From a bacterium (GTDB lineage Bacteria; Patescibacteriota; Minisyncoccia; Phycocordibacterales; UBA9973), in the NCBI GenBank assembly GCA_027484965.1, contig JAIXRY010000006.1, positions 130,101-194,100 on the forward strand: a stretch of 64,000 nt of DNA. The letters are read 5' to 3'. The translations under genes were made by a program, and so were the position numbers. Of this stretch, positions 16,549-54,606 are shown piece after piece; positions within the stretch are counted from its first letter, which is position 1; every line of letters begins with the position of its first letter. Under the pieces are notes generated by a model. It saw nothing but the letters and a program-made list of their open reading frames with translations, searched no databases and was not told where the DNA came from.

Positions 16549-17595
16549 GTGTATAATATCCTTATGAATTATAAATTTTTTACAAATTCTGAAAAAACAT
16601 GGGAAGCCATGTTCAAGTCCATCTCTGGAGCACAAAAATCTATATACCTAGAGATGTATATTTTTCAGGGCAATATAGGTAAATACAATTTCTCAAAAAT
16701 CTTGGCGGAAAAATCAAGTGAAGGTCTACAAGTAAAATTAGTTCTGGACTCATTCGGTAGTCTTAGTCTAAATAATCTTGAAATCTCAGAAATGAAAAAA
16801 TCAGGGGTAGAAATATTGTTCACGAGTTATCTAATACATCGTACACATAGGAAAATACTGATTATAGACGAGAAATATGCATTTATGGGTGGGGTGAATA
16901 TTCATAAAAAATCACAATGGTGGAATGATTTGTCCGTCAGGATTCGTGGCAAATTGGTAAAAAATATAGTTGAATCGTTTATAAAATCATACATAAATGC
17001 TGGTGGAAATGACTCTGTATTGATTGAGAAAAAAAGAAAGAATGTTTTAGTAGAAGTGAATGCATGGATAATAGAACACTCCCCAATCAAAAAAATTTTT
17101 AATCTTAAAAAAATATATAAATACCACCTAGGAAAGACAGAGAAGCGTATAGTATTGGTGACCCCATATTTCATGCCGAGACGCTGGATGCAAGCACTCT
17201 TTCACAATGCTGTATTGCGCAATATTGCTGTAGATATATTAATACCTCGAGAAACTGATCATTTTATAATTGATAGGGTTAATTATTTTTACATGTACAA
17301 GATGTCCGAATTAGGTGTCAATTTTTATATGGAGAAAGATATGAATCATGCAAAACTTATGATACTAGATGAAGATGAGTGTATGGTGGGGTCACAGAAT
17401 CTAGATTTCCTTTCTTTTGATTACAATTCGGAAGTAGGAGTATTCTTTAAAGATCAAAAAGTAGCGTCGGTATTGATCGATATTACGGAAAAATGGAAAA
17501 AGGATTCTGTTCTGTTTGATCATAAAAAGCACAAGCCACAGTGGTTTGATTATATCCTTTCTCCATTTATTAAAGTATTCTTTAGAATTTTTTAA
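16549..17595 (+). CDS. phospholipase D-like / cardiolipin synthase-like protein with two HKD motifs
   Basis: HRKILIIDEKYAFMGGVNI and HAKLMILDEDECMVGSQNLD. Confidence 0.75.
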   Translation: MYNILMNYKFFTNSEKTWEAMFKSISGAQKSIYLEMYIFQGNIGKYNFSKILAEKSSEGLQVKLVLDSFGSLSLNNLEISEMKKSGVEILFTSYLIHRTHRKILIIDEKYAFMGGVNIHKKSQWWNDLSVRIRGKLVKNIVESFIKSYINAGGNDSVLIEKKRKNVLVEVNAWIIEHSPIKKIFNLKKIYKYHLGKTEKRIVLVTPYFMPRRWMQALFHNAVLRNIAVDILIPRETDHFIIDRVNYFYMYKMSELGVNFYMEKDMNHAKLMILDEDECMVGSQNLDFLSFDYNSEVGVFFKDQKVASVLIDITEKWKKDSVLFDHKKHKPQWFDYILSPFIKVFFRIF

Positions 17596-26133: not shown

Positions 26134-26835
26134 ATGACAGCGATAAATATTTATTGTGACGAGAGTAATCATCTTGAAAGTGACAAAAAACCTATGGTCT
26201 TAGGGGCTCTTTATTGCCCTCGAGAAAAAACTAAAATCGTAAATAAAAGAATAAGAGAGATAAAAAAAGAACATGGATTGTCAGAGGATTTTGAAATTAA
26301 ATGGGCAAAAGTTAGTAGTAAAAGGATACCTTTTTATATAGATATTATAAGTTACTTTTTTGATCTCGATTATTTAGGAATAAGAGCTATAGTTGCCGAT
26401 AAAAGCAATCTTAATCACGCTAAATATAATCAAACTCACGATGAGTGGTATTACAAGATATATTATCAACTTTTAACAAAGATTATTCGCTCAGAATCAA
26501 CCTATAAAATTTGTTTAGACAAAAAAGATACTTTAGGGAAAGCTCGTATAGATAAATTAAGAGAATATTTATGTAATACAGAATTTGACTATAAAAAAGA
26601 TATTATTAAAGAAATTAGAGAAGTTCACTCTAGTCAAGTTCAAATGATACAAGTAATTGATCTCATAATAGGAGCTATACAATTTAACTTATGCAACAAG
26701 GGCGAGATTAAAGAAAGTAAGGCAAAAAGACAGATTGTCGAACATCTAAAAAAGAAAAGCGGTCGAACTCTTAGAGTAAATACTCTACCTTCCGAGTTTA
26801 AATTAAATTTATTTTTTTGGAATGCTCATGAATAA
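26134..26835 (+). CDS. DUF3800-family protein
   Basis: N-terminal INIYCDESNH resembles the YIDESG signature of DUF3800. Confidence 0.45.
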   Translation: MTAINIYCDESNHLESDKKPMVLGALYCPREKTKIVNKRIREIKKEHGLSEDFEIKWAKVSSKRIPFYIDIISYFFDLDYLGIRAIVADKSNLNHAKYNQTHDEWYYKIYYQLLTKIIRSESTYKICLDKKDTLGKARIDKLREYLCNTEFDYKKDIIKEIREVHSSQVQMIQVIDLIIGAIQFNLCNKGEIKESKAKRQIVEHLKKKSGRTLRVNTLPSEFKLNLFFWNAHE

Positions 26836-26845
26836 TTAGAATTTT

Positions 26846-27325
26846 ATGAATAATAACCCATCCTGGTTACCCACTTTGTTCACTCTATCTAGTTGTAGTG
26901 GTGATATAATATACTACACTGATAAACTTTATGAGATATTTCTTAATGATTTAGTGAACGGAAACCTGACTTTATCAAATAAAAAAATAATAATATCTTC
27001 AAAATTAGAAAATGATGGTCGCCATGAACGTTTTTGGCATACAATAACAGATCCACACAATCCTTCAATTTCTGATATTAAATTAGAAAGAGCAGAAAAG
27101 CTTCCATGGATTAAACCTATCATAATAAATGTTCCTAAGACTGAAATTCTTATTTATGAGAGAACTAAGAATAATGAGAAACGTCTTTATTTATTGCTCC
27201 CTAATAGTAATTATATTGTAGTTCTTTCAGTTAAAAAACAATCTTATTACTATGTTACAGCATTTCATATTGATTATTCATACAAAATAGCGGAGTATAA
27301 AAAGGAATACGAAAAATATAAGTAG
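26846..27325 (+). CDS. hypothetical protein (159 aa), likely co-transcribed with the DUF3800 gene
   Basis: 10-nt gap from upstream gene. Confidence 0.4.
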   Translation: MNNNPSWLPTLFTLSSCSGDIIYYTDKLYEIFLNDLVNGNLTLSNKKIIISSKLENDGRHERFWHTITDPHNPSISDIKLERAEKLPWIKPIIINVPKTEILIYERTKNNEKRLYLLLPNSNYIVVLSVKKQSYYYVTAFHIDYSYKIAEYKKEYEKYK

Positions 27326-27476: not shown

Positions 27477-27869
27477 TTAATTATTTTTAAGTAATTTATC
27501 TATTTTATCCCAATCTTCTTCTTGTATATATATTTTTTTTACTTTTTCAAGTATAAATTCCTCATTTTTAATAAAATCATCTACGTATTTATAGTCTTTA
27601 ATGTAATTAACATCTTCTTCTTTTTCTTTATCAAAATGACAATCCAATAAAGAATTAATCAATCTCCCTAGTTTCCTTTTTTCTGCTTTTGTTGAATCTG
27701 ATGTATATGATGGGAGGTTTGACTCCTCAAGAACAGAGATAAACTCAGAAAACTTATGAACTCTTTTCCAAAGTCTTTTAATTTGAGCTTTTGGGGAATA
27801 GTAGTAATTATCTAAAATTAACCAAGTCATTAAAGAAACTACGATAACTAAAAATATTATTCTAATCAT
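27477..27869 (-). CDS. hypothetical protein with N-terminal TM helix (130 aa)
   Basis: ORF only. Confidence 0.4.
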   Translation of the reverse strand: MIRIIFLVIVVSLMTWLILDNYYYSPKAQIKRLWKRVHKFSEFISVLEESNLPSYTSDSTKAEKRKLGRLINSLLDCHFDKEKEEDVNYIKDYKYVDDFIKNEEFILEKVKKIYIQEEDWDKIDKLLKNN

Positions 27870-27873
27870 AAAT

Positions 27874-28040
27874 TATCTATTTTTATAATGATAATGATAC
27901 TGTCCAGTCTTTAATCCCCACTTAGCACAATTTGTACGACATGTATGACCACCTCTTTTATCTGTTCTTCCAGGATGAGCAAAAGATACACTTGGTGCAA
28001 TTAAGGCTACAGCTATTAAAATAAGTGTTATTTTTTTCAT
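27874..28040 (-). CDS. small secreted YHYH-motif protein (55 aa)
   Basis: Not in ORF track; MKKITLILIAVALIAPSVSFAHPGRTDKRGGHTCRTNCAKWGLKTGQYHYHYKNR: signal peptide plus HPGRTD...GGH and YHYH motifs. Confidence 0.5.
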
Positions 28041-28041
28041 A

Positions 28042-28266
28042 TTAATCAAATAATCCTTTTTCTTTTAAGCATTCTGAATAACTTTTACCAATAGAACCAT
28101 CCTTATTTTCGTAAATCATTTTATCCCAATTTATTTTTCGAGTACTAGATATTTTATGGCAATTTTTTTTAATTTGCATAGGTCTTAATTCATACCAATA
28201 AAAAGCACCTGAAATTAAGATAAAGATGATTATAATTATTCCTTTGAATTCTTTTATTTTTTTCAT
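28042..28266 (-). CDS. small membrane protein (74 aa)
   Basis: ORF with one TM. Confidence 0.35.
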   Translation of the reverse strand: MKKIKEFKGIIIIIFILISGAFYWYELRPMQIKKNCHKISSTRKINWDKMIYENKDGSIGKSYSECLKEKGLFD

Positions 28267-28282
28267 TATTTAATAGTTTAAA

Positions 28283-29011
28283 TTATTGTACAGATTTTTT
28301 ACTTCCAAAAGCTATGTACAAAACAACTTTATAGTAAAAAATTAAGATAAATATAAAAGAAATTATTATCACTATAAATGGTAATAAAATATTTATAGTG
28401 GTATTTAAAATAGATATTTTATATATATTCAAATCTTTTACTTCACTATTATAAAATAAAATATTTTCTGTTTTTATTATTTTATCAGAATTAATTACAG
28501 GAGTGCTGGATTTATTCCAATCATAATCACTGATAGAATGTTTTTTATCAACAATGTTTAAAACACTTAATTTAACACATTTAGCCTTGTGTTGGTAAAG
28601 ACCTTCCTTAAATTCTTTAATACCAACAGAAGTATCTCCAAAAACATAAGAATTAATATTAAGATCTTGTTCAATTTTTTCTATATTTTTAGAAATATCG
28701 CTAGAACAATAGTAATCTAAAGCTGAAATTGACCCCTGATCTGATATGTAGCCAATTTTATTGTTATATATAATTTCTTTATCTTCTGTATTTACAAGAT
28801 ATTTTATGTGTTTATATGTTTCAGCAACTCTTTCAGACAGTATATCTGTTTCTTTATATTTAATTATTTTATCATTACCATACAAATCTAAAGCTGTAAG
28901 AGTGGTTGTAATAATAAATAACAACACAAACAAAACAGAGAGTAGCCGGTGCCACCATTTTTTGTTTAAATCTAAGTCATTTCTTAATAGTTTTGTAAGA
29001 TGTTTTTTCAT
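28283..29011 (-). CDS. membrane protein (242 aa; N- and C-terminal TM helices)
   Basis: ORF; overlaps helicase gene end by 4 nt. Confidence 0.4.
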   Translation of the reverse strand: MKKHLTKLLRNDLDLNKKWWHRLLSVLFVLLFIITTTLTALDLYGNDKIIKYKETDILSERVAETYKHIKYLVNTEDKEIIYNNKIGYISDQGSISALDYYCSSDISKNIEKIEQDLNINSYVFGDTSVGIKEFKEGLYQHKAKCVKLSVLNIVDKKHSISDYDWNKSSTPVINSDKIIKTENILFYNSEVKDLNIYKISILNTTINILLPFIVIIISFIFILIFYYKVVLYIAFGSKKSVQ

Positions 29012-32000
29012 AAATTATTTTTAATATTATTTACTATAAGTTCTTTGTTATCATCACTCTCTATCCACTCTGAGTATCCAATTCTAAAGAATGACCAACC
29101 AGCACTTTCAAGTACTCGCTGTCTTTGTATATCACTTTCAACATAAATACCATAAGCTTCATCTATATGATCTTTAAAGTGAGTTGGGCCATCACATTCA
29201 ATAGCTAGTTGTTTACCAGTGCTTAAGTTTGTTGCAACAAAATCAATCTTGAAACCACAACTCTCTACTTGATTTTGGATAGTATACCCCTTACCCAGTT
29301 TTTTCTTTAATAGATGATAGAATTCTTCTTCAAAATAACTATCAAACTTCTTAAGTATAAGTTTTGAGGCTGATACCTCTCCGTTATCTCTAACATACTC
29401 TAGGTATTTTTTTATCCAAATGCCAGAAGGTACTTTTTCTACAGGTAAACTCAAAATACAATGTACTTGTAGCTTCGCACGAGAGAATGCAACATTTACT
29501 CTACCAGCATTTATATCAGCTTGTATATCACCAGTTTCGCCAGTGAGAGGGCGATACTGCCTTTTTTGAGAAGGATCTCTTATAACAAAAGAATATATAA
29601 TAATATCTTTCTCGTCTCCTTGTATACCTTCGATGACTGAAATTTTTAACCTATCCCCCTCTTTTATTCTGTTGTCTTCAAAGACTTTTCTAATCAGCTC
29701 TGCTTGATCGTTAAAGAATGTAAGAACACCAAAAGTCTTACCTTCGTACTTTGGATCATTAACCATTTCTTGATATAGACTTAAAGCTTTAAGAGCTTCA
29801 GCGTAGTTAGTATTATCACTTATTTCTCCTACACCAGTATTTTCAATATTATGAATAACCATTATGCGGTTAGTATCTTGATATGTTAAATATTTATTAT
29901 TTAAAGCTATCAAACGCTTACCTTTAGGCTCGTAAAAATATTTATTACTAAATCCTATAAGTTCCATTGGGGAACGATAATGATATTGAAGTATTTTTGG
30001 TATACCAAATCTAGTTTTTGCAATATCTAGAACAGATTGCACAGCTGTGCCTGTAGGTTTTATCTGTAGACTTTCTGGTACTTTGTAACGACTAGCAAGT
30101 TGATCAAATGCTTGATTTGATTTAAACATAACAGTACTATCTCTCATTTGTTCTGGATCTCCAACAAATATAGCTTTTTTTGCTCTGTACATTGAAGGTA
30201 TTGTATAAGCAATATTACACTGAGACGCCTCGTCAAAGACTACGTAATCAAACAAGTTAGCCACTAGGGGTATGAGACGACTAGCGTCGTCTAGATCCAT
30301 AATCCAAATAGGCACTATGTTTAATATAGTTTCAAAGTTTGAGGGATCGTTTTTTAATTTATCAAAAGTTTTAAAAGCTTTCTTTGATTTTTTAAATGCT
30401 TTTTGTAGCTCTTGAAGTTTTCTCCATATTTTTACCTGTGAGGCATTTTTATTTATATTGTCTTCAATAATTGCAGATAAGTATTGAGAAATGATTTCTT
30501 TTCTACTAATTTGATTCTTATCAGTTACTTCTTTTTTTAGTTTAGATATTTCATTAATTAGATTGTTTTGATTGTGATTTAAAGTAATTCTTTCTGATAG
30601 TTTCTCTAATAATTCTGAAACTGTAAGGGACTTATCTTTCAAAAAACTAAATAGATTAGAAATTTCATCTTTTGAGAGTTCTAGATTTGTCTCTATTTCT
30701 ACGAGCGACTTCTCTAATTTCTCGTTTTCAATAATTAGTTCCCAATATGTACAAAAACCTAGAAGTTCCTCTAGTTCTTTTATTGCATTATGTCTAGAAA
30801 TATCTTTTGATAAAACACTGTTTATTTCATCATATATCTCTTTAGGTAATCGACTTAAGTGTTCTTTAAGTCGTAACTTTCTACTAAAATTATTTATGTA
30901 TCTTCCTAGATTAAAAGATCTATCAAAACCTGTTTTTTTAACATCAACAATAACTGTTTTAATCAAATCTGAAAAAGTATAATCTGAAAAAATTTCTTTT
31001 TCTAATGAATATCTTTTTGAAATACTTTCTAAGTCTTTTAAGAATTTATTATTTTGAGATATTTTTTCTTCTGTTTTTAAATACAATCTATATAAATCAT
31101 CAGTAAAATTAGTTAATATAGTCTGCTCACTTATATCTGGAAGTCCTTCTAAAAAAATATACTCTTTTTTCTTTTCTTCAATTTCGTACACACTTCGTTG
31201 TAAAGAAATAACTTTATCTCTTTTAGTAAGACTATTATTAATATTTTGAGTGAAGTCATCTAAGTTTACACTATCTTTTGAAATACCTTTATAAGCACCA
31301 TATGTATCTAGTGAAGATAATTGAGAAGATATTGTGTCTGCCTCCTCATCATTTACTTGCTCAAACTTCACACTAGGAATATATCCGAACAATAGAGGTA
31401 CCTCAAGTGTCTTAAGTTTATCTTTTACAACACGCAAAGCTTGAGGTTTTTGACTTACGAAGAGTACTTTATTTTTATTAACAGCTAAGTGTGAGATTAT
31501 GTTAGAAATAGTCTCTGATTTACCTGTACCTGGAGGCCCTTGTATAATAGAGGCTTTATTGCCTAAAAGAGTGGTGGTGGCCCGTTGAAATTTGTCGTAT
31601 GGAAATGGAAAGTATAGAGCTTTTTCTTCACAAACATCAGAGTTTACATTCAAACCTTCTTCTGAAAACCAACCCGATAACGATGTATCCTCTAAAAGTT
31701 CTTCCTTTTCTCTTGATAGTTTTGTAAGATCTTCAACAAGAAAGAAGTTTGCTCGTGGAGCAAGTGTTAGTCTTAAATCTTCAAGATTAAACGATTCTTC
31801 ATTAAATGTCGCATCTGTCAGTCTTAGTTTTGCTTTAAGCATGTGCCACAAATCTAAAAATATTTGTTCAGAAGAAATAGGTATAGAAAATCCACCATCA
31901 CTTTCTAGTTTTACATAATCATTTAAAAACTCGTAAACCAAATCTTCTTTTTTGTAAGTTCTAAATATTTCATAAAGAGGAGGTAAATTGAGACGAACTT

Positions 32001-32577
32001 CAAAATCAACAGGTACTACAGAGTATATGTCTATATTGTTTTTATCCTTTTCTTTCTCAACTCTAACCGGCAGTGAAAATAAATAAAATTGTTTTGATAC
32101 TAATTTTACTACTTCTTTTTCCTCAGTATTTTGTTTAATTTCTATATCTTCTTCCGTTTCAACTACTGCTTCTTCTAATACCTCAAAATCAAAACGACCA
32201 AAACGTAGTATGGTCTCTTTAGTGAAAGTATCATTTTTAGCTTTGCTATACACTTCATCTATTTGTAAAGCAAGATTTTTTTCTAATTTGTATTGATCAG
32301 CTATTTCCTCAGTAACATCTTTAGGGTCTGTGTTGTAATAGCAGTCGAGATTAACAATTTCTTTTAAGTTACCATCTATATCTCCATTAATAAGACTAGG
32401 TAAAGAGAAGTATTTTTGTGGTAATTTAACATCAATTGCAGTACCTCTATTAAAACCAGTTGGTTTTGTAAGACTAAGATATCCTAGACAATATTTAATA
32501 TACGAATTAAGTGAGAAGTTCATAATGATAATTATAGCAAAAAAAACCCTAAAGATGGAGTAGAAAGAACGACTCAC
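29008..32577 (-). CDS. superfamily-1 (Upf1/DNA2-like) helicase with long coiled-coil insertion, fused to C-terminal DUF559 endonuclease-like domain
   Basis: Walker A IIQGPPGTGKSETISN, Walker B VVFDEASQ ~430 aa later, motif YRSPMELIGFSN (AAA_12), C-terminal GFKIDFVATN...AIECDGPTHF...ESAGWSFFRIGYSEW (DUF559/Vsr-like fold). Confidence 0.75.
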   Translation of the reverse strand: MSRSFYSIFRVFFAIIIIMNFSLNSYIKYCLGYLSLTKPTGFNRGTAIDVKLPQKYFSLPSLINGDIDGNLKEIVNLDCYYNTDPKDVTEEIADQYKLEKNLALQIDEVYSKAKNDTFTKETILRFGRFDFEVLEEAVVETEEDIEIKQNTEEKEVVKLVSKQFYLFSLPVRVEKEKDKNNIDIYSVVPVDFEVRLNLPPLYEIFRTYKKEDLVYEFLNDYVKLESDGGFSIPISSEQIFLDLWHMLKAKLRLTDATFNEESFNLEDLRLTLAPRANFFLVEDLTKLSREKEELLEDTSLSGWFSEEGLNVNSDVCEEKALYFPFPYDKFQRATTTLLGNKASIIQGPPGTGKSETISNIISHLAVNKNKVLFVSQKPQALRVVKDKLKTLEVPLLFGYIPSVKFEQVNDEEADTISSQLSSLDTYGAYKGISKDSVNLDDFTQNINNSLTKRDKVISLQRSVYEIEEKKKEYIFLEGLPDISEQTILTNFTDDLYRLYLKTEEKISQNNKFLKDLESISKRYSLEKEIFSDYTFSDLIKTVIVDVKKTGFDRSFNLGRYINNFSRKLRLKEHLSRLPKEIYDEINSVLSKDISRHNAIKELEELLGFCTYWELIIENEKLEKSLVEIETNLELSKDEISNLFSFLKDKSLTVSELLEKLSERITLNHNQNNLINEISKLKKEVTDKNQISRKEIISQYLSAIIEDNINKNASQVKIWRKLQELQKAFKKSKKAFKTFDKLKNDPSNFETILNIVPIWIMDLDDASRLIPLVANLFDYVVFDEASQCNIAYTIPSMYRAKKAIFVGDPEQMRDSTVMFKSNQAFDQLASRYKVPESLQIKPTGTAVQSVLDIAKTRFGIPKILQYHYRSPMELIGFSNKYFYEPKGKRLIALNNKYLTYQDTNRIMVIHNIENTGVGEISDNTNYAEALKALSLYQEMVNDPKYEGKTFGVLTFFNDQAELIRKVFEDNRIKEGDRLKISVIEGIQGDEKDIIIYSFVIRDPSQKRQYRPLTGETGDIQADINAGRVNVAFSRAKLQVHCILSLPVEKVPSGIWIKKYLEYVRDNGEVSASKLILKKFDSYFEEEFYHLLKKKLGKGYTIQNQVESCGFKIDFVATNLSTGKQLAIECDGPTHFKDHIDEAYGIYVESDIQRQRVLESAGWSFFRIGYSEWIESDDNKELIVNNIKNNL

Positions 32578-32590
32578 AAGACACTATTCT

Positions 32591-33112
32591 TTAGTATTTA
32601 AAAGCGGTACTTTTTTCAATTTTACTTAAATCAGATATATTTAAAATTTCATTTTTTGATTGTTTTTCTTTTAGATATTTACAGATAACTTCATCATCTT
32701 CTATCAAAACAATAAACTGTGGTAAAAAAGATTCTGAAAGAATTTTGTAAGCGCTTTTGCTCGGACAATGATTCATAACGAGACCTATATATCCTAACCA
32801 ATCAGGAAACTTAGTAACCACTTGAATATCTGTCAGCTTTGCTTCTACCACAATAGAGACTAATTTAATTTGATTTTCTTCACTTGTGTTTCTAAGGAAG
32901 TTACTATAATCATTCATTTCCTTTAGAGATGAGTTATTTTCTTTACCATTAGGCCAAAAAGAAGTATGGTCTGGATGCACACCTTGAATTAGTTTAGAAA
33001 AAGAAACTTTAAAAGCGTTGTGTCCACAAGTTGTACAATTTATATTCCAGCACCAATTATTTTGTGAGGCTATTTCACATAGGGCTACAAATGAGTTTCT
33101 TTGTTTTTTCAT
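32591..33112 (-). CDS. Cys-rich small protein (WCWNINCTTCGH), partner of the helicase-nuclease
   Basis: 13-nt gap to helicase gene. Confidence 0.45.
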   Translation of the reverse strand: MKKQRNSFVALCEIASQNNWCWNINCTTCGHNAFKVSFSKLIQGVHPDHTSFWPNGKENNSSLKEMNDYSNFLRNTSEENQIKLVSIVVEAKLTDIQVVTKFPDWLGYIGLVMNHCPSKSAYKILSESFLPQFIVLIEDDEVICKYLKEKQSKNEILNISDLSKIEKSTAFKY

Positions 33113-33147
33113 TATTGTTTATTTTTATTAATTTTCTATTATAAATT

Positions 33148-33180
33148 TTTAAGCTTTTCAACGCTTTGTAACGCTTTGTA
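33148..33180. promoter_or_regulatory. direct repeats (aacgctttgt)x3 plus nearby palindrome tagtagtttttactact in the helicase operon upstream region
   Basis: Seen directly; operator/iteron-like. Confidence 0.35.
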
Positions 33181-33318
33181 ACGCTTTTGAACCAAACTTT
33201 TTTCACTACTTTTTAGTAGTTTTTACTACTTTCTAATCACATTTTTTAATGTTAATTACTGTTAATTAATGTTTTCTATTGTTTTTGAAACAAGTATTTT
33301 GCAATATAAATTAATTTA

Positions 33319-33921
33319 TTAGACAACTTGTAAAAGTGTAGAGAATACGAAATGCATTCTATGGTTTTGAAACATGAAATTTGGATACATAAGCAACTCA
33401 AGAGCCATAATATATTCTTTGTTATAACCTATAAGATCGGCTATTTTATCTAAAAAACGTGCACCAACCGCATTGTTACCAATATTCAAAGGTTTGAACA
33501 TTAAACTATATATAGGATATGAGAGATAATCTTCGTATAGTTCATCAAATAACTCTTCTGCATTTAGAGAATATTTTTCTGTTGCATAAGATAATATATT
33601 TGATTTTAAGAATATATATTGTTCGTTTGTTAGATATTTATCTATTACAACACTTCTAAGTCTCTCTAAAATACATAAATTGGATACAAAAGTATATAAC
33701 TCAACTTTATTCCTTAATTCCCTATTATCTTCTTTAACATAGTGATAGAAAAGCTGATTTGTAAAGTCTAAAGACATACACGAAAGAATACCTGAAATAA
33801 TATTACTCTTTTCAATTAGAGCAGATTCAGAATTGTTTGAACCTTTAAGCTTTGAAATACCCTCTTCTATGTAGTACATTCTAAAACTATCTTTAATAGA
33901 CATTGATTTTTCTTTAGACAT
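33319..33921 (-). CDS. hypothetical protein (200 aa), third gene of a three-gene operon
   Basis: 4-nt gap to upstream gene. Confidence 0.45.
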   Translation of the reverse strand: MSKEKSMSIKDSFRMYYIEEGISKLKGSNNSESALIEKSNIISGILSCMSLDFTNQLFYHYVKEDNRELRNKVELYTFVSNLCILERLRSVVIDKYLTNEQYIFLKSNILSYATEKYSLNAEELFDELYEDYLSYPIYSLMFKPLNIGNNAVGARFLDKIADLIGYNKEYIMALELLMYPNFMFQNHRMHFVFSTLLQVV

Positions 33922-33924
33922 ATA

Positions 33925-34536
33925 TTATTTCTTACCTGAAGATTTAATTTCATGAAAACGATCTATTATCATATATCCAAGTGCAACCAATCTATCAGAA
34001 GGTTTAATCCATAGTTGTTTTTGAAATTTATCAGAATTGAAACTAAAAGTATTTAAAGAATTTTCTAAAATAGATAATTTATTATCTATCACCTCTTTTT
34101 TATATGTATAGTAATTTATAGACTCTCGCAGACCATCCATCAACATAATTCTATAGTCTTGGTCTTTACAGTGTTTTGTTATGTTTGGGAATTTTTCAGG
34201 ATTCAATTCATCAAGATATGTAAAGATATAATTCTCTTCTTCCTGTATATTTTTATATTCTTCATCTCTTTCACCATTTACATATCCTTCATCGTAAATA
34301 TGCTTTACACTTTCTTTTAGAGAAGAAACTATAGACTTGGTTATAATAAAAAATATAAGGAATATTGAAGCTAGAGATATAGAGCCAAATATCAATATAT
34401 TTTTAATACTAGTAAAATCAGAAGAGTTTATAACTAGAAAAGATATAGCGAGACAAGGTATTATCAGAAATAAAAATACAAATGATAGTATGTTTAATTT
34501 CTTTATTGTTCTATCTACTCCTCTTAAAATATACAT
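33925..34536 (-). CDS. membrane protein (203 aa, two N-terminal TM helices)
   Basis: ORF. Confidence 0.45.
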   Translation of the reverse strand: MYILRGVDRTIKKLNILSFVFLFLIIPCLAISFLVINSSDFTSIKNILIFGSISLASIFLIFFIITKSIVSSLKESVKHIYDEGYVNGERDEEYKNIQEEENYIFTYLDELNPEKFPNITKHCKDQDYRIMLMDGLRESINYYTYKKEVIDNKLSILENSLNTFSFNSDKFQKQLWIKPSDRLVALGYMIIDRFHEIKSSGKK

Positions 34537-34567
34537 ATTTGTATTCTTAGCTAATGTTATTAATTAT

Positions 34568-35173
34568 TTATGTAAAATTACCAGCAAGTTTTACTTTTTT
34601 AATTTTCTCAATATGATCAAATGGTCTAACAAACTTAGAACGATCTACAACAATTTCTTCATATTTTTTTGCAATTCTAACACCTAGAGTACCCCCTATT
34701 TGATCTTCAATTGGTTTTGATAGTCCGAAAGGAAAATCTGAGTCAAAAGAATTTACACCGTATCCAATCAAAGACCTACTAAAAATCTCATGGAAATCAC
34801 TGAAAACATATCCTTCAGGAATATTTATTGATCTACGAGGATGGTACATGTCTAAATAAAGAATGTCCCACACATTTCCTCCACAGGAAACGACTTCGTA
34901 TATATCTATATTTCCATCAGATCCAAGTCTGTGAAATATAAGCCCACCTTCATCAGTACGCAGTCTATTTAGATATTTAATTTCACCAATTGGCCCATTA
35001 ACGGGTACAGGATTTGTAGCAACTTTTCCAAATTCCCCTTTTGCGTTTGGTAGAACATTACAATCTAGACCATTAATAGATTCTTTACTTAGAAAATCTG
35101 GAAATCTTTCTAGATCTTTGATTTGATCTTCAATAGATTCGTCTTTAAATTTTTTCTTAAAAAAATTAAACAT
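34568..35173 (-). CDS. hypothetical protein (201 aa), first gene of the three-gene operon
   Basis: ORF. Confidence 0.45.
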   Translation of the reverse strand: MFNFFKKKFKDESIEDQIKDLERFPDFLSKESINGLDCNVLPNAKGEFGKVATNPVPVNGPIGEIKYLNRLRTDEGGLIFHRLGSDGNIDIYEVVSCGGNVWDILYLDMYHPRRSINIPEGYVFSDFHEIFSRSLIGYGVNSFDSDFPFGLSKPIEDQIGGTLGVRIAKKYEEIVVDRSKFVRPFDHIEKIKKVKLAGNFT

Positions 35174-37576: not shown

Positions 37577-39370
37577 ATGGACAAAAACAATTTTGACGCA
37601 GAAAAATTAAATTATATTATCTACTGTCGTAAATCAAGTGATACAGAGGATAAACAAGTTCAATCACTTGAGACTCAACATAGAGAATTAACAGATTATG
37701 CATTACGCAATAATCTTAATGTTGTAAAAATTATTCAAGAAAGTAAAAGTGCTTTCACTGTTGGTAGACAAGGTTTTGAAGAAATGCTTAAACTTATAAA
37801 GAGTAAAAAAGCAAATGCAATTTTAGTTGTTCGAGCAAATCGTATTTCAAGAAATGTTATGGATTCTGCATATATTATTTCTCTTATGGATGAGAAAATG
37901 TTGATGTATGTTAGAACTCCTTCATCTTCATGTTATACCTGTTTCGGTAACGATAGATTTATGCTTGGTCTAGAATTTATTATTTCCAAGAAAGATAGTG
38001 ATGATAAAGGTGAAGCTGTAAAAGAAGGACAAAAAACAAAAGCGTTAAAAGGAACCCCTCACGGATTAGCTTCTTTAGGCTTTCTTAATGATCGATCAGA
38101 AGAAAAAGGAAATAGAAAATGGTTAGTAGATCCAGAGAGACTATGGAAAATAGAGAAGCTTTTAAAAATGTTCCTGACTGGTACATACTCTGCTGGTAAA
38201 CTACATAGATACGCGATAAATGAGCTCAAATTAACCACTGTTAGTAGAAAAAGAAGTGGTGGTGCTCTAATAGTAAGTTCCCGTATTTATGAAATTTTAA
38301 AAGATCCTATCTATGCAGGATTCTTTGTTTATGGAGAAAAAAGATACGAATTAGATAAAAATTTACCTAGACTTATAACAGAATCTGAACACAATAAAAT
38401 TAAACAATTACTCTCTAGAAATAACATTCCTAAATCACAACACCATGAAGCTACATATTCTGGATTTATACAGTCTGCTGAAGGAAACTTTATGGGGCCT
38501 GATACTAAGTTTCAAGTAATATGTGATTGTAAGAAAAAGTTTGCATACAGAAATAAAAATCACTGTCCTCAATGTGGAATTAACATTGATCAAATGGAGA
38601 GTCCTAAATACTTGGATTACACTCACTACTACAATGTTAAGAGAAAGAAGGCTTCTCTACCATATAAGTCTATTTCAGAAAAAGATATTCTAAAAGAAAT
38701 GGTTGAATATATTGACCAAAATTTACAGTTTTCCAACGATCTCTTGGAGTGGTCTAAAAAAAATATACACGAAATGAAAGACAAAGAAGTGAGCGAAAAA
38801 GTTTTAATATCAAAAGACAGAGAGAACAGAAAAGAAGAATATGAATTAAAGAAATCTAAATTGAGAGGGTTACTTCGTGATGATAAAATTATAGAAGACG
38901 ATTATAAAATTGATCTAGCACTATTGAATAAAGAATATGCTGATATAAACATAGATGCGCAGAGTGTCGATTGGTATCAAGAGATGATGGATATCACTGA
39001 TTTAACTCAAGGTGTTATAGAAGTATTACAAAACGGCTCCTTTCAAGCAAAAAGAGATATACTTTCAAAGCTTGGTTCGAACCTAGTATGGAACGACGAA
39101 AAACTTAGTATTTACAACAGAAAATCAATAGAAGTACTTGTGAAAGGGATAAAAGGTATTAAGTCAGAATTTCCAAAGTTCGAACCTAAATTAAGCTTTG
39201 CAGAACAAGGCTTAAATGAAAAAACTAGCGAGTTTTCGCCAGTTTTTTCTACAATGCTCCATCTAGTGGACAAGTTCAGAACTGCTAATTGGACTGGTAT
39301 TAAAAGTGATTTACAGTTTAGTGGTGTTTTAGAGCTGTTAACTTCAGAATCAATAGATTGCTTACTTTAG
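37577..39370 (+). CDS. large serine recombinase (resolvase catalytic domain + recombinase domain + zinc ribbon)
   Basis: YIIYCRKSSDTEDKQVQSLETQ catalytic-Ser motif; CDCKKKF...HCPQCG zinc ribbon; 597 aa. Confidence 0.8.
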   Translation: MDKNNFDAEKLNYIIYCRKSSDTEDKQVQSLETQHRELTDYALRNNLNVVKIIQESKSAFTVGRQGFEEMLKLIKSKKANAILVVRANRISRNVMDSAYIISLMDEKMLMYVRTPSSSCYTCFGNDRFMLGLEFIISKKDSDDKGEAVKEGQKTKALKGTPHGLASLGFLNDRSEEKGNRKWLVDPERLWKIEKLLKMFLTGTYSAGKLHRYAINELKLTTVSRKRSGGALIVSSRIYEILKDPIYAGFFVYGEKRYELDKNLPRLITESEHNKIKQLLSRNNIPKSQHHEATYSGFIQSAEGNFMGPDTKFQVICDCKKKFAYRNKNHCPQCGINIDQMESPKYLDYTHYYNVKRKKASLPYKSISEKDILKEMVEYIDQNLQFSNDLLEWSKKNIHEMKDKEVSEKVLISKDRENRKEEYELKKSKLRGLLRDDKIIEDDYKIDLALLNKEYADINIDAQSVDWYQEMMDITDLTQGVIEVLQNGSFQAKRDILSKLGSNLVWNDEKLSIYNRKSIEVLVKGIKGIKSEFPKFEPKLSFAEQGLNEKTSEFSPVFSTMLHLVDKFRTANWTGIKSDLQFSGVLELLTSESIDCLL

Positions 39371-41569: not shown

Positions 41570-43009
41570 TTAATATCTATCATTTTGATCTTTAATATAT
41601 TTTTTTTGTTTTATGTATTCGATCAAAAGATCACAGAATAAAGATTCCTCATTGCCTTCTGCTACAGTAATAAAATCTGAACCTGTTATATCTTGACTTA
41701 TTGCATATTTATTCCAAGTTATAATAGGATTTGATTCACTAGGCATTTGTACACCAAAAGACTTTAGCATTGTAACTATATATTTACCATAAGGCATTCG
41801 TTTGCCTGTTTTTAATTTAGATTTTTTTATAATTTCTAATTTTTCTAAAAAAACATTAGTATTTGAAAAACTGTGTATAGCTATTTTTATCGCAATGTTA
41901 AATATTTTTTGAAAATTATCAGCAAAATGATCTTCATAATAACTACCTTTTTTTAATTCAGTTAATTGATACCTAGTTGCTTTTAATAATGATCTTAAAT
42001 TTACGATCTCATAGTTAACTGATTGTGAAAATATATACCAAAGAAAAAGCTTGATGTATCCACTATCTGCAATTGCTGGGGATAAATTAGGCTCCTCATT
42101 TTTTATATTCCTAGATATCTCTTCAACCATACTTAATACTGCTTTTTTATTGTCAAAATAAAATGGACTTATAGTAAAAAATTTATCCATATAACCCGAG
42201 AAATCAGTATTGGATCCGTATCTATGATGAAAAAAATGTTTTAAATTTGTATAATCTCCAACTATAATTATTAAATCAAAGCCGAATTTGTTTTCGTGTT
42301 CTTTTTCAAAATAAGAAGATAATATATTTAATATTCTAAATACGTGTTCTGGGTCTAATCTATCTAAATCATCTAAAATTAAGATACTTTTTTTATCTTG
42401 TTTTTCTAGTTTAATTTTTTCCCGTAATAAATGACTAAAAAAATCCGTCTCAGAGATATTTTTCTTTTTTACCTCTTTAATATATTCTTCAACTAAAGCT
42501 TTTTCTCCACCGATATAATCTTCCTTAAACTTTTGAAATTTTTTATCTAATTCAAGTAAATCTTTTAAAGATTTGCCTAATTTTCCAACAAAACCAGATA
42601 TTGGATTTGGAATCATACCAGAAAAAGATTCGCCTAAAGATAGTGATTGTTGAAGTGCAGAATTTAATGAAATATTATCTTTAGCCCAAGAATAAAAAAG
42701 GAGGGATGATTCTTCAATTCCATTGACTTCATTCGTTGTAAAAATATTATTATTCTTTTTCATAAGTTCAACAAGAATATCGTATTTAATCAATTCCAAA
42801 ATATCTTCATTACTACTAATCTGATAGTTGATTGGGTACAAGTGAAAAACTTCATAATTATTTTTTTTCAATTCAAAAAATTCATTTAAAAAATATGTTT
42901 TACCCACACCAAATTGACCAGAAAAAAATATTCTGGAATTTTCTTCCATATTTAAAAAGGATTCAAAATCACCCAATACACTATCAATCGGTATCTTAAT
43001 ATTTGACAT
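41570..43009 (-). CDS. KAP-family P-loop NTPase
   Basis: Walker A SGQFGVGKTYFLNEF and hallmark Walker B ILILDDLDRLDPEHVF. Confidence 0.7.
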   Translation of the reverse strand: MSNIKIPIDSVLGDFESFLNMEENSRIFFSGQFGVGKTYFLNEFFELKKNNYEVFHLYPINYQISSNEDILELIKYDILVELMKKNNNIFTTNEVNGIEESSLLFYSWAKDNISLNSALQQSLSLGESFSGMIPNPISGFVGKLGKSLKDLLELDKKFQKFKEDYIGGEKALVEEYIKEVKKKNISETDFFSHLLREKIKLEKQDKKSILILDDLDRLDPEHVFRILNILSSYFEKEHENKFGFDLIIIVGDYTNLKHFFHHRYGSNTDFSGYMDKFFTISPFYFDNKKAVLSMVEEISRNIKNEEPNLSPAIADSGYIKLFLWYIFSQSVNYEIVNLRSLLKATRYQLTELKKGSYYEDHFADNFQKIFNIAIKIAIHSFSNTNVFLEKLEIIKKSKLKTGKRMPYGKYIVTMLKSFGVQMPSESNPIITWNKYAISQDITGSDFITVAEGNEESLFCDLLIEYIKQKKYIKDQNDRY

Positions 43010-48819: not shown

Positions 48820-49803
48820 ATGAAAGATAAAAAACAAAAAAAGTATACATTGGTTTCTTTATTTGCTGGATGTGGCGGATTGGATTTAGGTTTTACTGGC
48901 GGATTTGAAGTGTTAGGTAAAAAATATACAAAGAGAAATTTTGATTTAATATGGGCTAATGATTTTGAAAAAAATGCTTGTTTAACTTTCTCAAAATATT
49001 TTGATAAAGAAATTGTTTGTGCCGATATAGTAGAGGTTTTGAAAGGAAATTACCCAGATTTATTTTCGTCTCGTATGCCTAAAAAAGCTGACGTTGTTAT
49101 AGGTGGATTTCCTTGCCAAGATTTCAGTTTAGCTGGTAAGAGAAGAGGTTTTAATTCAAAAAGAGGAAATCTATATCAAAGTATGGTTGAAACTGTTAAA
49201 AGATTAGAACCAGCCCTATTTATCGCTGAAAATGTTAAGGGGCTTTTGAGTATGAATGGTGGAGATGCAATTGAAACAATTAAAAAAGATTTTGCCGAGC
49301 TTGGTTACAATGTCGAATATAAACTTTTTCACGTAGCGGATTACGGAGTACCTCAAAATAGAGAGCGAGTTATTATTGTTGGTACAAGTAAAAAGAAGAA
49401 AATGCCACCATTTGTTTTTCCAAAACCAACACATACTAAAGATAAATGGGTTTCAGTCGGAGAAGCTATTAAAGACTTAGAAAAAATTGAAGAAAATAAT
49501 TTCCCTAACCATAGTTGGTCAAGAGCGAAAATGTTTGAAGGTACTCAAGGAAACTCAATAATTAAAAAAGATAAAATAGCTCCGACAATGAGAGCTGAAC
49601 ATCACGGGAACATAGAGTGGCATTGGAATAAAAAGAGAAGATTATCCGCAAGAGAAGCAGCAAGAATACAAACATTTCCAGATAACTTTATCTTTTATCC
49701 TTCTACCTCAAGTGCTTATAAGCAAATTGGTAATGCAGTCCCTCCTGTTTTTGGTTGGCATATAGCTAAAGCAGTTGAAAATTATTTAACTAAGAATATA
49801 TAA
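48820..49803 (+). CDS. DNA (cytosine-5)-methyltransferase
   Basis: LFAGCGGLDLGF (motif I), GGFPCQDFSLAGKR (IV), ENVKGL (VI), QNRERV (VIII), YKQIGNAV (X). Confidence 0.9.
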   Translation: MKDKKQKKYTLVSLFAGCGGLDLGFTGGFEVLGKKYTKRNFDLIWANDFEKNACLTFSKYFDKEIVCADIVEVLKGNYPDLFSSRMPKKADVVIGGFPCQDFSLAGKRRGFNSKRGNLYQSMVETVKRLEPALFIAENVKGLLSMNGGDAIETIKKDFAELGYNVEYKLFHVADYGVPQNRERVIIVGTSKKKKMPPFVFPKPTHTKDKWVSVGEAIKDLEKIEENNFPNHSWSRAKMFEGTQGNSIIKKDKIAPTMRAEHHGNIEWHWNKKRRLSAREAARIQTFPDNFIFYPSTSSAYKQIGNAVPPVFGWHIAKAVENYLTKNI

Positions 49804-49807
49804 ATTT

Positions 49808-50440: not shown

Positions 50441-50442
50441 TT

Positions 50443-52026: not shown

Positions 52027-52050
52027 ACCAGCTTTTACTTTTTTTATACT

Positions 52051-54598: not shown

Positions 54599-54606
54599 AA
54601 TGGGTA

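What the first reader, a model, noticed from the sequence alone, without database searches (positions are those of the whole stretch)
29008..33310. Nhi-like single-protein helicase-nuclease (SF1 Upf1-like helicase + C-terminal DUF559) with a Cys-rich partner gene and repeat-bearing upstream region
- The 1189-aa protein has Walker A GPPGTGKSE, an unusually long (~430-aa) coiled-coil insertion before Walker B DEASQ, and a C-terminal DUF559/Vsr-like endonuclease-fold domain.
- An upstream 173-aa Cys-cluster protein is separated by 13 nt.
- The promoter region contains (aacgctttgt)x3 direct repeats and a palindrome.
- Helicase-nuclease fusions of this kind act as stand-alone anti-phage proteins (nuclease-helicase immunity).
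- Here the nuclease is C-terminal and there is a 330-aa N-terminal domain of unknown function.
Basis: partly seen in the sequence, partly recalled or inferred. Interest (0 to 1): 0.6.

Follow-up and report, generated by a model that had tools for sequence, protein, structure and literature searches.

The report
Compact Hhe-like helicase–nuclease defence gene
This is an intact 1171-residue helicase fused to a DNA-cutting domain, from a Patescibacteria (CPR) genome. It is a small, divergent relative of the known anti-phage proteins Hhe and ProA, sits in a mobile defence island, and works as a stand-alone gene rather than with the Cys-rich neighbour.

Summary
The ORF, its motifs, the Cys-rich neighbour and the upstream repeats are all present, with corrections. 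The true start is most likely the ATG at 32523, giving 1171 aa and a 67-nt gap to the neighbour rather than 13 nt. The repeat has 2.8 copies and lies upstream of the neighbour gene.

The protein has a family-specific N-terminal domain, which is probably a very divergent DUF4011. It then has an SF1B Upf1-like helicase split by an all-helical ~330-aa insertion, and a C-terminal MTES_1575/Vsr-like nuclease. This is the Hhe/ProA/PDC-S37 architecture in compact form. It scores far below the curated cut-offs for those families and gave no Nhi hit.

In 55 orthologous loci, all in CPR MAGs or metagenome contigs, the Cys-rich gene is never adjacent. Among the close relatives compared, nucleotide homology stops at the gene's own borders. 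Close relatives share a TGnTATAAT box just before the ATG.

Neighbours are variable and typical of islands: serine recombinases in 16 loci, Gabija, Old, type III and type I R-M, Shedu, and many PD-(D/E)xK nucleases. The window carries PDC-M04.

Best reading: a stand-alone, horizontally shuffled anti-phage helicase–nuclease. This is a new variant of a known kind and is untested experimentally.

The parts
29008..32523 (-). Helicase–nuclease CDS, 1171 aa from the ATG at 32523. The mechanical ORF extends to a GTG at 32577.
   Evidence: (P0001 is 100% identical and 1171 aa).
31624..32523 (-). N-terminal domain (aa 1 to ~300). It is family-specific, and its core (aa ~76-190) is probably a very divergent DUF4011.
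31513..31539 (-). Walker A motif GPPGTGKSE (aa 329-337).
   Evidence: G329-S336 is invariant in 47 orthologues and E337 is nearly invariant.
30319..31323 (-). All-helical insertion within RecA1 (aa ~401-735). It is the most variable part of the protein.
   Evidence: The AlphaFold2 model shows helices 421-460, 475-502, 577-614 and 635-666, among others. Identity between clades is 24-27% here, against 59-69% in the helicase core.
30220..30234 (-). Walker B / motif II DEASQ (aa 764-768).
   Evidence: D764, E765, S767 and Q768 are invariant and A766 is nearly invariant.
29461..30000 (-). RecA2 / AAA_12 region (aa 842-1021) carrying motifs IV-VI (YHYRS, IQGDEKD, GRVNVAFSRA).
   Evidence: Pfam AAA_12 2.9e-20. 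PDB sequence and fold matches are to IGHMBP2, Sen1/SETX, Upf1, Aquarius and Dna2.
29044..29349 (-). C-terminal MTES_1575/DUF559/Vsr-like PD-(D/E)xK nuclease (aa ~1059-1160). D1094, E1109, D1111 are invariant and H1115 is invariant in 47 orthologues, nearly so in a wider set.
32531..32547 (-). T-run plus an extended -10-like box (TTTTTTTTGCTATAAT) ending 7 nt before the ATG. This is the gene's own putative promoter and implies a leaderless or near-leaderless mRNA.
   Evidence: The box is conserved upstream of clade-A orthologues L060, L059, L001, L051 and L053, although their flanks are unrelated. Nucleotide homology between loci begins about 20 nt before the ATG.
32591..33112 (-). 173-aa Cys-cluster protein. 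It is a neighbour, not a conserved partner.
   Evidence: There is no homologue in any other orthologous helicase locus. Its own family (about 100 clusters; those with a source name are CPR, apart from one labelled Bacilli) lies next to R-M systems in L062, L063 and L146.
33160..33187 (.). Tandem repeat AACGCTTTGT, 2.8 copies, 100% match, upstream of the 173-aa gene.
   Evidence: It is not found upstream of homologues of the 173-aa gene.
33205..33230 (.). AGTAGT-AAAA-ACTACT-AAAA-AGTAGT, an inverted repeat with 6-bp arms.
   Evidence: Read directly. It is too short for the repeat finder.
33246..33273 (.). Second period-10 tandem repeat, TTAATGTTAA, 2.8 copies, 88% match.
28283..29011 (-). 242-aa predicted membrane protein (about 2 TM segments). 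Its ATG overlaps the helicase stop codon (ATGA). It is specific to this locus.
   Evidence: No family hits.
26134..27325 (+). Complete PADLOC candidate defence system PDC-M04 (M04A/DUF3800 + M04B), 1.7 kb from the helicase.
   Evidence: M04A 1.4e-77. M04B 1e-34. DUF3800.
37577..39370 (+). Large serine recombinase, divergent from the helicase and 5 kb upstream of it.
   Evidence: Pfam Resolvase + Recombinase. Homologues lie near the helicase in 16 of 55 orthologous loci.

Best explanation
The gene encodes a stand-alone anti-phage (anti-invader) helicase–nuclease. It is a compact, CPR-associated branch of the superfamily built as DUF4011 + SF1B helicase + Vsr-like nuclease, which contains Hhe and ProA.

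Shown here:
- The protein is intact. Nearly all helicase motif residues and the nuclease catalytic residues are invariant across the family.
- It has its own promoter-like box.
- Among close relatives it is exchanged as a unit the size of the gene.
- It sits among recombinases and recognised defence systems.

Inferred mechanism:
- The protein is made from a leaderless or short-leader transcript.
- The N-terminal DUF4011-like domain and the fast-evolving helical insertion probably keep the enzyme inactive or confer target recognition.
- On infection, the Upf1/Dna2-like motor loads on single-stranded nucleic acid, most likely phage replication or recombination intermediates, and translocates 5'->3'.
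- The C-terminal PD-(D/E)xK domain then cuts.
- The outcome is destruction of the invader or abortive infection.

The Cys-rich neighbour and the upstream repeats are not part of the unit.
For: - Domain architecture and intact motifs.
- The best library matches are defence families: PDC-S37 3.6e-65, Hhe, MkoA/C; ProA 2.3e-63 and Hhe 2.6e-40. A true ProA (L039, 2088 bits) has the same collinear layout.
- The N-terminal domain aligns to the DUF4011 core with HHalign Prob 63-75%, P 2.5e-5, while 21 controls gave P >= 0.2.
- Distribution is patchy: only 61 clusters at 50% identity in 1.84 billion proteins.
- There is no conserved synteny in 55 loci.
- Nucleotide homology to 75-86% identical copies starts about 20 nt before the ATG and ends at the stop codon.
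- A TGnTATAAT box is conserved.
- Neighbours include complete Gabija (GajA 4.6e-211, GajB 6.4e-118), Old (1.5e-46) and type III R-M; Shedu SduA_C, HsdM and NucS-like; serine recombinase in 16 of 55 loci and tyrosine integrases; and PDC-M04 in the window.
- E. coli Hhe is a single helicase–nuclease gene. Its apparent triggers are phage DNA-metabolism genes, and it becomes toxic when a phage gene is co-expressed (bioRxiv 10.1101/2024.10.10.617714).
Against: - No member of this clade has been tested.
- Scores are far below the curated cut-offs (214 vs 1500 bits for ProA, 138 vs 2000 for Hhe). Matches cover only the Walker A region and the C-terminal half.
- A DUF4011 gene is a core gene in every P. 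aeruginosa isolate (PMC10250203), so the superfamily is not exclusively defensive.
- One orthologue (L055) lies among housekeeping genes, with RecA/RecX and a RecD-like helicase within 6 kb.
- In ~1-Mb CPR genomes, proximity to anything is weak evidence.
- Very high conservation (66-80% identity between CPR classes) could also reflect a cellular role.
- The substrate (DNA or RNA) is unknown. The nuclease domain also matches RAP in 24 of 25 members.
Confidence: 0.6

Rival explanations
1. It is an accessory genome-maintenance enzyme. In this reading it acts as a Dna2/AddAB-like end-resection or replication-fork-processing helicase–nuclease, sometimes working with a Cas4/RecB-like nuclease encoded just downstream.
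For: - The SF1B core resembles Dna2 and IGHMBP2.
- A co-oriented PD-(D/E)xK gene lies within about 50 nt downstream: DUF2779 x5 and PDDEXK_1 x3 among 35 loci with at least 1.6 kb of downstream sequence, plus DUF2130 x3 (clan membership of DUF2130 is from memory, not checked).
- L087 has XseA downstream.
- L055 lies near RecA, RecX and a RecD-like helicase.
- The DUF4011 gene is core in P. aeruginosa.
- Purifying selection is strong on all catalytic motifs.
Against: - The family is rare, with 61 clusters at 50% identity.
- It has no fixed location.
- It travels as a gene-sized block.
- The downstream nuclease varies in family. Its phylogeny disagrees with that of the helicase: the DUF2779 of L053 is 63% identical to that of L002, but their helicases belong to different clades.
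- The window copy has no such nuclease within 64 kb.
Confidence: 0.15
2. It is a backbone or maintenance gene of integrative elements driven by a serine recombinase. It would serve the element (replication, exclusion of competing elements, stabilisation) rather than the host.
For: - A large serine recombinase lies within 10 kb in 16 of 55 loci. In at least 8 of these it is divergent and 2.5-7.5 kb upstream, with variable cargo in between: window, L003, L004, L008, L053, L058, L061, L087.
- Tyrosine integrases lie immediately upstream in L001 and L059.
Against: - The recombinases are only 22-36% identical where the helicases are 47-87% identical, for example in L061. They are therefore not co-inherited.
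- Well-flanked loci L051, L055 and L057 have no serine recombinase within 10 kb.
- Homology stops at the gene borders.
- There are no orthologues in IMG/VR.
Confidence: 0.12
3. It is a two-gene system with the upstream 173-aa Cys-rich protein. The tandem repeats would act as its operator.
For: The two genes are on the same strand and 67 nt apart. The repeats are non-random and lie upstream of the pair.
Against: - None of the 54 other orthologous loci has the Cys-rich gene, including loci whose helicases are 90% and 87% identical.
- The Cys-rich family occurs without the helicase next to R-M genes.
- The helicase has its own conserved promoter box.
- The repeats are absent upstream of homologues of the Cys-rich gene.
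Confidence: 0.03

Closest known systems
ProA (NCBIfam NF058533, 'anti-phage protein ProA'); example L039 from Alkalihalobacillus pseudalcaliphilus, 1950 aa
   Same: The layout is collinear: DUF4011(-like) domain, Walker A, long insertion, Walker B, AAA_12, MTES_1575 nuclease. ProA is the best NCBIfam hit (2.3e-63).
   Different: The window protein scores 214 bits against a cut-off of 1500. It is 1171 aa rather than ~1900. It lacks the ~380-aa N-terminal extension and the C-terminal DUF3320. Its insertion is about half as long. The N-terminal domain is not recognised by the Pfam DUF4011 model. I could not trace the paper that describes ProA.
Hhe (Gao et al. 2020 single-gene system; NCBIfam NF042953, PADLOC PDLC02194)
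   Same: It is a single-protein helicase plus Vsr-like endonuclease defence gene of the DUF4011 type. Hits are 8.4e-33 in PADLOC and 2.6e-40 in NCBIfam. The literature describes one gene with helicase and nuclease domains, whose triggers are phage DNA-metabolism genes.
   Different: The window protein scores 138 bits against a cut-off of 2000. Only residues ~750-1177 align. It is about 600-700 aa shorter.
PDC-S37 (PADLOC candidate single-gene system, PDLC05009)
   Same: It is the best PADLOC hit, 3.6e-65.
   Different: The best stretch covers only query residues 559-1177 and profile positions 737-1329 of 1550. The N-terminal half is unmatched. PDC-S37 is itself only a candidate; no paper in the searched library mentions it.
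Nhi (nuclease-helicase immunity, staphylococci)
   Same: The concept is the same: one polypeptide combining an SF1 Upf1-like helicase with a nuclease, acting alone against phage. This comparison rests on my own knowledge of Bari et al. 2022, not on a test here.
   Different: The domain order is reversed, with the nuclease C-terminal here. The nuclease family is different. No Nhi-named model appears among the PADLOC hits at E <= 0.01.
Core DUF4011 gene of Pseudomonas aeruginosa (right flank of defence hotspot cDHS1)
   Same: It belongs to the same superfamily of large DUF4011 helicases (PMC10250203).
   Different: That gene is present in every isolate at a fixed position. The CPR family is rare, mobile and never in a fixed position.
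Eukaryotic and archaeal SF1B helicases (Upf1, IGHMBP2, Sen1/SETX, Aquarius, Dna2)
   Same: The RecA1/RecA2 core and motifs match. These are the only solved structures that match.
   Different: Matches are confined to the helicase core at 11-19% identity. They do not share the N-terminal domain, the helical insertion or the Vsr-like nuclease.

Membership tests
SF1B Upf1-like helicases (Pfam AAA_11/AAA_12) | Walker A, motif II DExx, and motifs III-VI in the RecA1/RecA2 order. Pfam AAA_11 and AAA_12 above the gathering score. | tested here: met
   AAA_11 scores 72.3 bits and AAA_12 73.1 bits, against cut-offs of 27. Nearly all motif residues are invariant in 47 orthologues. PDB matches are to Upf1, IGHMBP2 and Sen1.
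MTES_1575 / DUF559 (Vsr-like PD-(D/E)xK nuclease) | Pfam model above the gathering score and catalytic acidic residues present. | tested here: met
   MTES_1575 scores 60.3 bits (cut-off 38.2) and DUF559 23.2 bits (cut-off 20.6). D1094, E1109 and D1111 are invariant; H1115 is invariant in 47 orthologues and nearly so in a wider set. Enzyme activity was not tested.
Hhe (NCBIfam NF042953 equivalog) | Whole-protein score of at least 2000 bits. | tested here: not met
   137.8 bits, covering only residues 750-1176.
ProA (NCBIfam NF058533 equivalog) | Whole-protein score of at least 1500 bits. | tested here: not met
   214.3 bits. The positive control L039 scores 2088 bits.
PDC-S37 (PADLOC) | HMM hit covering most of both the profile and the protein. 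| tested here: not met
   E is 3.6e-65, but the best stretch covers about 38% of the profile (positions 737-1329 of 1550) and about 52% of the protein. PADLOC's own coverage thresholds were not applied.
DUF4011-helicase-nuclease superfamily (Hhe/ProA-like architecture) | A DUF4011 domain N-terminal to the Walker A motif. | tested here: inconclusive
   The Pfam DUF4011 model is not among the 25 most-matched families for 25 family members at E <= 5. Profile-profile comparison gives Prob 63% (P 6.9e-5) and 75% (P 2.5e-5) over 89-122 columns. The match covers the conserved 'LxFG...PLFSxPVxI...Y.i...D..v.vN' core, at the expected position before the Walker A motif. Reversed and column-shuffled controls gave P >= 0.2.
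DUF4011-helicase-nuclease superfamily (Hhe/ProA-like architecture) | A long insertion between Walker A and Walker B, followed by AAA_12 and an MTES_1575 nuclease. | tested here: met
   The Walker A to Walker B gap is 429 aa here. DUF4011 proteins L014, L032 and L039 have even longer gaps and the same domain order.
Nhi | N-terminal nuclease followed by a C-terminal helicase, with a match to an Nhi model. | tested here: not met
   The nuclease is C-terminal. No Nhi-named family appears among the PADLOC hits. I did not verify that the library contains an Nhi model. The Nhi domain order is from memory.
Anti-phage defence gene (functional class) | Patchy distribution and location in variable islands with other defence genes and recombinases. 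| tested here: met
Anti-phage defence gene (functional class) | Protection against phage when expressed. | not testable with these tools
   This needs a plaque or liquid infection assay.

The most novel reading that the evidence does not exclude
The gene may be a self-contained cassette (promoter plus ORF) that spreads between CPR lineages by a dedicated mechanism. Candidate mechanisms are capture as a site-specific recombination cassette next to a tyrosine recombinase (as hinted in L059 and L001), or nuclease-assisted homing. Its CPR-specific N-terminal domain and fast-evolving helical insertion would then form a new kind of infection sensor.
Probability: 0.07. Interest if true: 0.75.

Novelty: new variant of a known kind. 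Interest (0 to 1): 0.38.

Why it matters
Few defence systems have been characterised in Patescibacteria. These organisms have tiny genomes but a high density of defence genes (PMC12259885 and PMC12366544).

This family is a minimal version of the poorly understood Hhe/ProA helicase–nucleases, about 1170 aa instead of 1800-1900. It keeps all catalytic motifs and concentrates its variability in one helical insertion. That makes it a convenient scaffold for working out how this whole class senses infection.

It also shows that standard annotation cut-offs miss it. The finding is not surprising in kind: helicase–nuclease fusions in defence islands are common.

Tried and rejected
1. Cys-rich protein as a conserved partner. 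Rejected: it is absent from all 54 other loci.
2. Phased A-tract (curved DNA) explanation for the three period-10 arrays upstream of the 173-aa gene. Rejected: period-10 power was 0.1, it was reached by 1785 of 2000 shuffles, and 86% of all 100-nt windows scored at least as high.
3. Direct repeats or target-site duplications flanking the gene as a general mobility signature. In 38 loci only L083 exceeded its shuffled maximum (by 2 of 18 positions). The L059 repeat did not exceed its maximum in an 18-nt window.
4. A dif/Xer-like motif shared by L001 and L059. It is absent from the window and from other loci.
5. Pfam DUF4011 detection on individual members: DUF4011 not among the 25 most-matched families listed.
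7. Phage origin. There are no orthologues in IMG/VR, only one 26%-identical relative. One PHROG of unknown function matches the helicase core.
8. A DUF2779 partner elsewhere in the window: none.
9. Literature on ProA and PDC-S37: nothing found.
10. Sigma-70 consensus scan of the region: not enriched over shuffles (42 sites against 45.9 expected).

Full report
**What is in the sequence**

The minus strand carries an uninterrupted ORF at 29008..32577, giving 1189 aa from a GTG. The database copy of this exact protein (P0001) is 1171 aa. All 47 aligned orthologues begin at the equivalent of the internal ATG at 32523, reading MxFSLNSYIKYC. I therefore take 29008..32523 as the gene.

In 1171-aa numbering:
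- Walker A GPPGTGKSE is at residues 329-337.
- Motifs III-VI (VGDxEQ, YHYRS, IQGDEKD, GRVNVAFSRA) are all present. Nearly all of their residues are invariant in 47 orthologues.

Pfam finds AAA_19/AAA_11 split around the insertion, then AAA_12, then a C-terminal MTES_1575 (1.9e-16), DUF559 (6.6e-5) and RAP (1.3e-5) domain. The putative catalytic residues D1094, E1109 and D1111 are invariant. H1115 is invariant in the 47-orthologue alignment and nearly invariant in a wider 25-sequence set.

The 173-aa ORF at 32591..33112 is real and carries an invariant C-x4-C-x2-C cluster. With the corrected start it lies 67 nt from the helicase, not 13.

The intergenic region upstream of that small gene holds three elements:
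- a perfect period-10 repeat AACGCTTTGT at 33160-33187, 2.8 copies;
- a second period-10 array at 33246-33273;
- AGTAGT-AAAA-ACTACT-AAAA-AGTAGT at 33205-33230.

**Organism and family**

The named orthologues come from Patescibacteria (CPR) MAGs: Paceibacterota, Staskawicz-, Morani-, Magasanik-, Buchanan- and Levybacteria. A few bins carry other, possibly mis-assigned, labels.

The 120 best hits are all about 1130-1280 aa, match 95-99% of the query and are 45-100% identical. There are two main clades. The window belongs to clade A (67-100% identity). Clade B members are 66-80% identical to each other across different CPR classes.

Conservation is uneven. The helicase core and nuclease are 57-69% identical between clades, the N-terminal domain 38-44%, and the insertion only 24-27%.

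**Domains of unknown function**

AlphaFold2 with a 47-sequence alignment gave mean pLDDT 72.7. It predicts:
- an alpha/beta N-terminal domain: a long helix 75-97, then long beta-hairpins 102-116, 141-159 and 165-171;
- RecA1;
- an all-helical insertion at residues 421-736, with helices up to 40 residues;
- the rest of RecA1, then RecA2;
- a compact alpha/beta nuclease domain.

Sequence and fold searches of the PDB return only Upf1-like SF1B helicases: IGHMBP2, Sen1/SETX, Upf1, Aquarius and Dna2.

Profile-profile comparison does align residues ~76-190 with the DUF4011 core of true DUF4011 proteins:
- Prob 63%, P 6.9e-5, against 10 sequences;
- Prob 75%, P 2.5e-5, against 31 sequences;
- one reversed and 20 column-shuffled controls all gave P >= 0.2.

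The aligned motifs match ('LyLAlGfLeW ... APLiLiPV.i.R ... y.i ... Edi..N' against 'i.L.FGff ... pLFsIPV.I.k ... Y.i ... D..i.vn'). The position before Walker A is also the same. I regard a very divergent DUF4011 as probable but not proven.

**Relation to known systems**

PADLOC gives PDC-S37 (3.6e-65), Hhe (8.4e-33), MkoA/MkoC (~1e-21) and mad8. No Nhi model is among the hits. NCBIfam gives anti-phage ProA at 214 bits (cut-off 1500) and Hhe at 138 bits (cut-off 2000). In both libraries the best-matched stretches lie in the C-terminal half.

As a control, a distant relative fetched from Alkalihalobacillus (L039, 1950 aa) scores 2088 bits as ProA. Its layout is DUF4011, then Walker A, a very long insertion, AAA_12, MTES_1575 and DUF3320.

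The window protein therefore shares the collinear architecture of Hhe and ProA. It is 600-800 residues shorter and is not a member of either equivalog family.

'Nhi-like' is only an analogy. The domain order is reversed and there is no model hit.

According to the literature held here, Hhe is one gene with helicase and nuclease domains. Its apparent triggers are several T7 DNA-metabolism genes, and it is toxic with one Bas63 gene. Its mechanism is unknown.

**Genomic context: the decisive test**

I collected 55 orthologous loci from GTDB genomes, metagenome contigs and exact-protein look-ups.

*1. The Cys-rich gene is next to the helicase only in the window.* It is absent even from loci whose helicases are 90% (L060) and 87% (L061) identical. 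Its own family has about 100 clusters. Those that carry a source name are from CPR, apart from one labelled Bacilli. It is found instead beside R-M genes:
- L062: C5 methylase, R.HinP1I, Vsr;
- L063: an Eco57I-type enzyme and HNH;
- L146: type I R-M.

*2. The gene moves as a gene-sized unit.* Nucleotide homology between the window and five loci holding 75-86% identical copies starts about 20 nt before the ATG and ends at the stop codon. That short upstream stretch holds a conserved T-run plus TGnTATAAT box 6-18 nt before the ATG. This suggests the gene brings its own promoter and a leaderless or near-leaderless mRNA.

*3. No neighbour family is conserved*.

*4. The neighbours that recur are island-type genes:*
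- Large serine recombinases occur in 16 loci. They are often divergent and 2.5-7.5 kb upstream, as in the window (37577-39370).
- Tyrosine integrases occur in L001, L057 and L059.
- XRE-type HTH genes lie directly upstream in L067 and L074.
- Co-oriented nuclease genes lie directly downstream: DUF2779 x5, PDDEXK_1 x3, DUF2130 x3, plus NucS-like, Shedu SduA_C and MBL/beta-CASP.

*5. Recognised defence systems are adjacent:*
- a complete Gabija next to the 87%-identical orthologue (GajA 4.6e-211, GajB 6.4e-118);
- Old (1.5e-46);
- type III R-M (Mod 8e-159, Res 2.6e-90);
- HsdM.

In the window itself, a complete PDC-M04 candidate system lies 1.7 kb away (M04A 1.4e-77, M04B 1e-34). The next 25 kb hold two serine recombinases, two KAP NTPases, a C5 methylase and an NgoFVII-like restriction enzyme.

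One locus (L055) is surrounded by housekeeping genes, including RecA/RecX. No orthologue was found in IMG/VR.

**Interpretation**

It is not met. The data fit a horizontally shuffled, single-gene defence module.

My best explanation (confidence 0.6) is a stand-alone anti-phage helicase–nuclease of the Hhe/ProA kind. The following steps are inferred, not shown:
- The DUF4011-like domain and the rapidly diverging helical insertion act as regulatory or sensing modules.
- The SF1B motor moves 5'->3' on single-stranded nucleic acid produced during infection.
- The Vsr-like domain cuts.

Rivals:
- An accessory repair or resection enzyme that sometimes teams up with a Cas4-like nuclease (0.15). This is supported by the recurrent downstream PD-(D/E)xK genes and by the core status of a DUF4011 gene in P. 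aeruginosa. It is weakened by rarity, mobility and discordant partner phylogeny.
- A backbone gene of serine-recombinase elements (0.12). This is weakened because the recombinases are only 22-36% identical where the helicases are 47-87% identical.

**The upstream repeats**

The repeats are real and unlikely to arise by chance. They are specific to this locus and belong to the 173-aa gene's upstream region. A phased A-tract (curved DNA) explanation failed. They may be an operator or a slippage product. I cannot say which.

**Novelty and score**

This is a new, compact, CPR-associated variant of a known kind of defence protein. Curated family cut-offs miss it, and its N-terminal domain is barely recognisable. 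It is not a new category.

It is moderately interesting as a minimal model for the mechanistically unsolved Hhe/ProA class, and as one of the few candidate defence families centred on Patescibacteria. Interest is 0.38.

Noticed in passing
window 26134-27325 (+): A complete PADLOC candidate two-gene system, PDC-M04, lies 1.7 kb downstream of the helicase. It consists of M04A (a DUF3800 protein, 1.4e-77) and M04B (1e-34).
   Followed up: partly
window 32591-33112 (-); L062 6001-6579; L063 6001-6528; L146 3389-3913: The 173-aa Cys-cluster protein belongs to a family of about 100 clusters; the named members are from CPR, apart from one labelled Bacilli. Invariant features are C21, C26, C29 and a KFPDWLGYIG motif, and it has no Pfam domain. 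It recurs next to R-M systems (type I, type II and Eco57I-like), so it may be an island gene in its own right. It would be worth comparing with the Patescibacteria-specific defence proteins LdgA and DdgA of PMC12366544, whose sequences I could not obtain.
   Followed up: partly
L002 13527-15074; L051 13537-15126; L053 13521-15011; L074 4806-6299; L086 2174-3664; L058 13887-14729; L080 5658-6797; L085 3215-4114; L003 12077-13336; L008 13496-14653; L066 4412-5698: A co-oriented nuclease-type gene (DUF2779, PDDEXK_1/Cas4-like or DUF2130) follows the helicase–nuclease within about 50 nt in 11 orthologous loci. The DUF2779 and helicase phylogenies disagree. This could be an optional partner, or a shared insertion hotspot.
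   Followed up: partly
L059 9938-9965 and 13544-13570; L001 12866-12895: In L059 the helicase cassette is bracketed by two ~30-nt imperfect direct repeats (TTAATGTTGCATAATTGTAATTACA and TTAAGTGTCATAACTATAATTACA). The first overlaps the 3' end of a truncated tyrosine-integrase gene that follows what looks like a tRNA gene (read by eye, no tRNA scan). L001 has the intact 298-aa integrase directly upstream and the same motif downstream. This hints at site-specific cassette capture. It was not seen in the window or in other loci.
   Followed up: partly
window 48820-55752: A second island segment holds a C5 cytosine methylase (48820-49803), a second large serine recombinase (50443-52026), a 689-aa KAP NTPase (52529-54598) and an NgoFVII-like restriction enzyme (54607-55752). 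Another KAP NTPase lies at 41570-43009, with a weak PDC-S20 hit.
   Followed up: no
window 28283-29011 (-): The start codon of a 242-aa protein with two predicted TM segments overlaps the helicase stop codon (ATGA), which suggests translational coupling. It matches no family and has no homologue at other helicase loci.
   Followed up: partly
window 31592-31918 (+): A 108-aa antisense ORF inside the helicase gene appears 'conserved' in other loci. That is only because it lies within the conserved helicase coding sequence, so it is not a gene.
   Followed up: yes
L058 825-2501 (-): A full-length serine recombinase homologue (29% identity over 577 aa to the window's) lies in a stretch where the source annotation calls no gene.
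   Followed up: no
window 33319-35173 (-) and 27477-28266 (-): A run of small co-oriented ORFs (201, 203, 200, 74 and 130 aa), several looking hydrophobic or membrane-like by eye, surrounds the helicase. They have no significant hits in Pfam, NCBIfam or PADLOC (PHROGs was run on four of the five), and no homologues at orthologous loci.
   Followed up: partly
window 16549-17595 (+): A PLD-like (PLDc_2) protein of 348 aa lies outside the low-GC island. It was not examined further.
   Followed up: no
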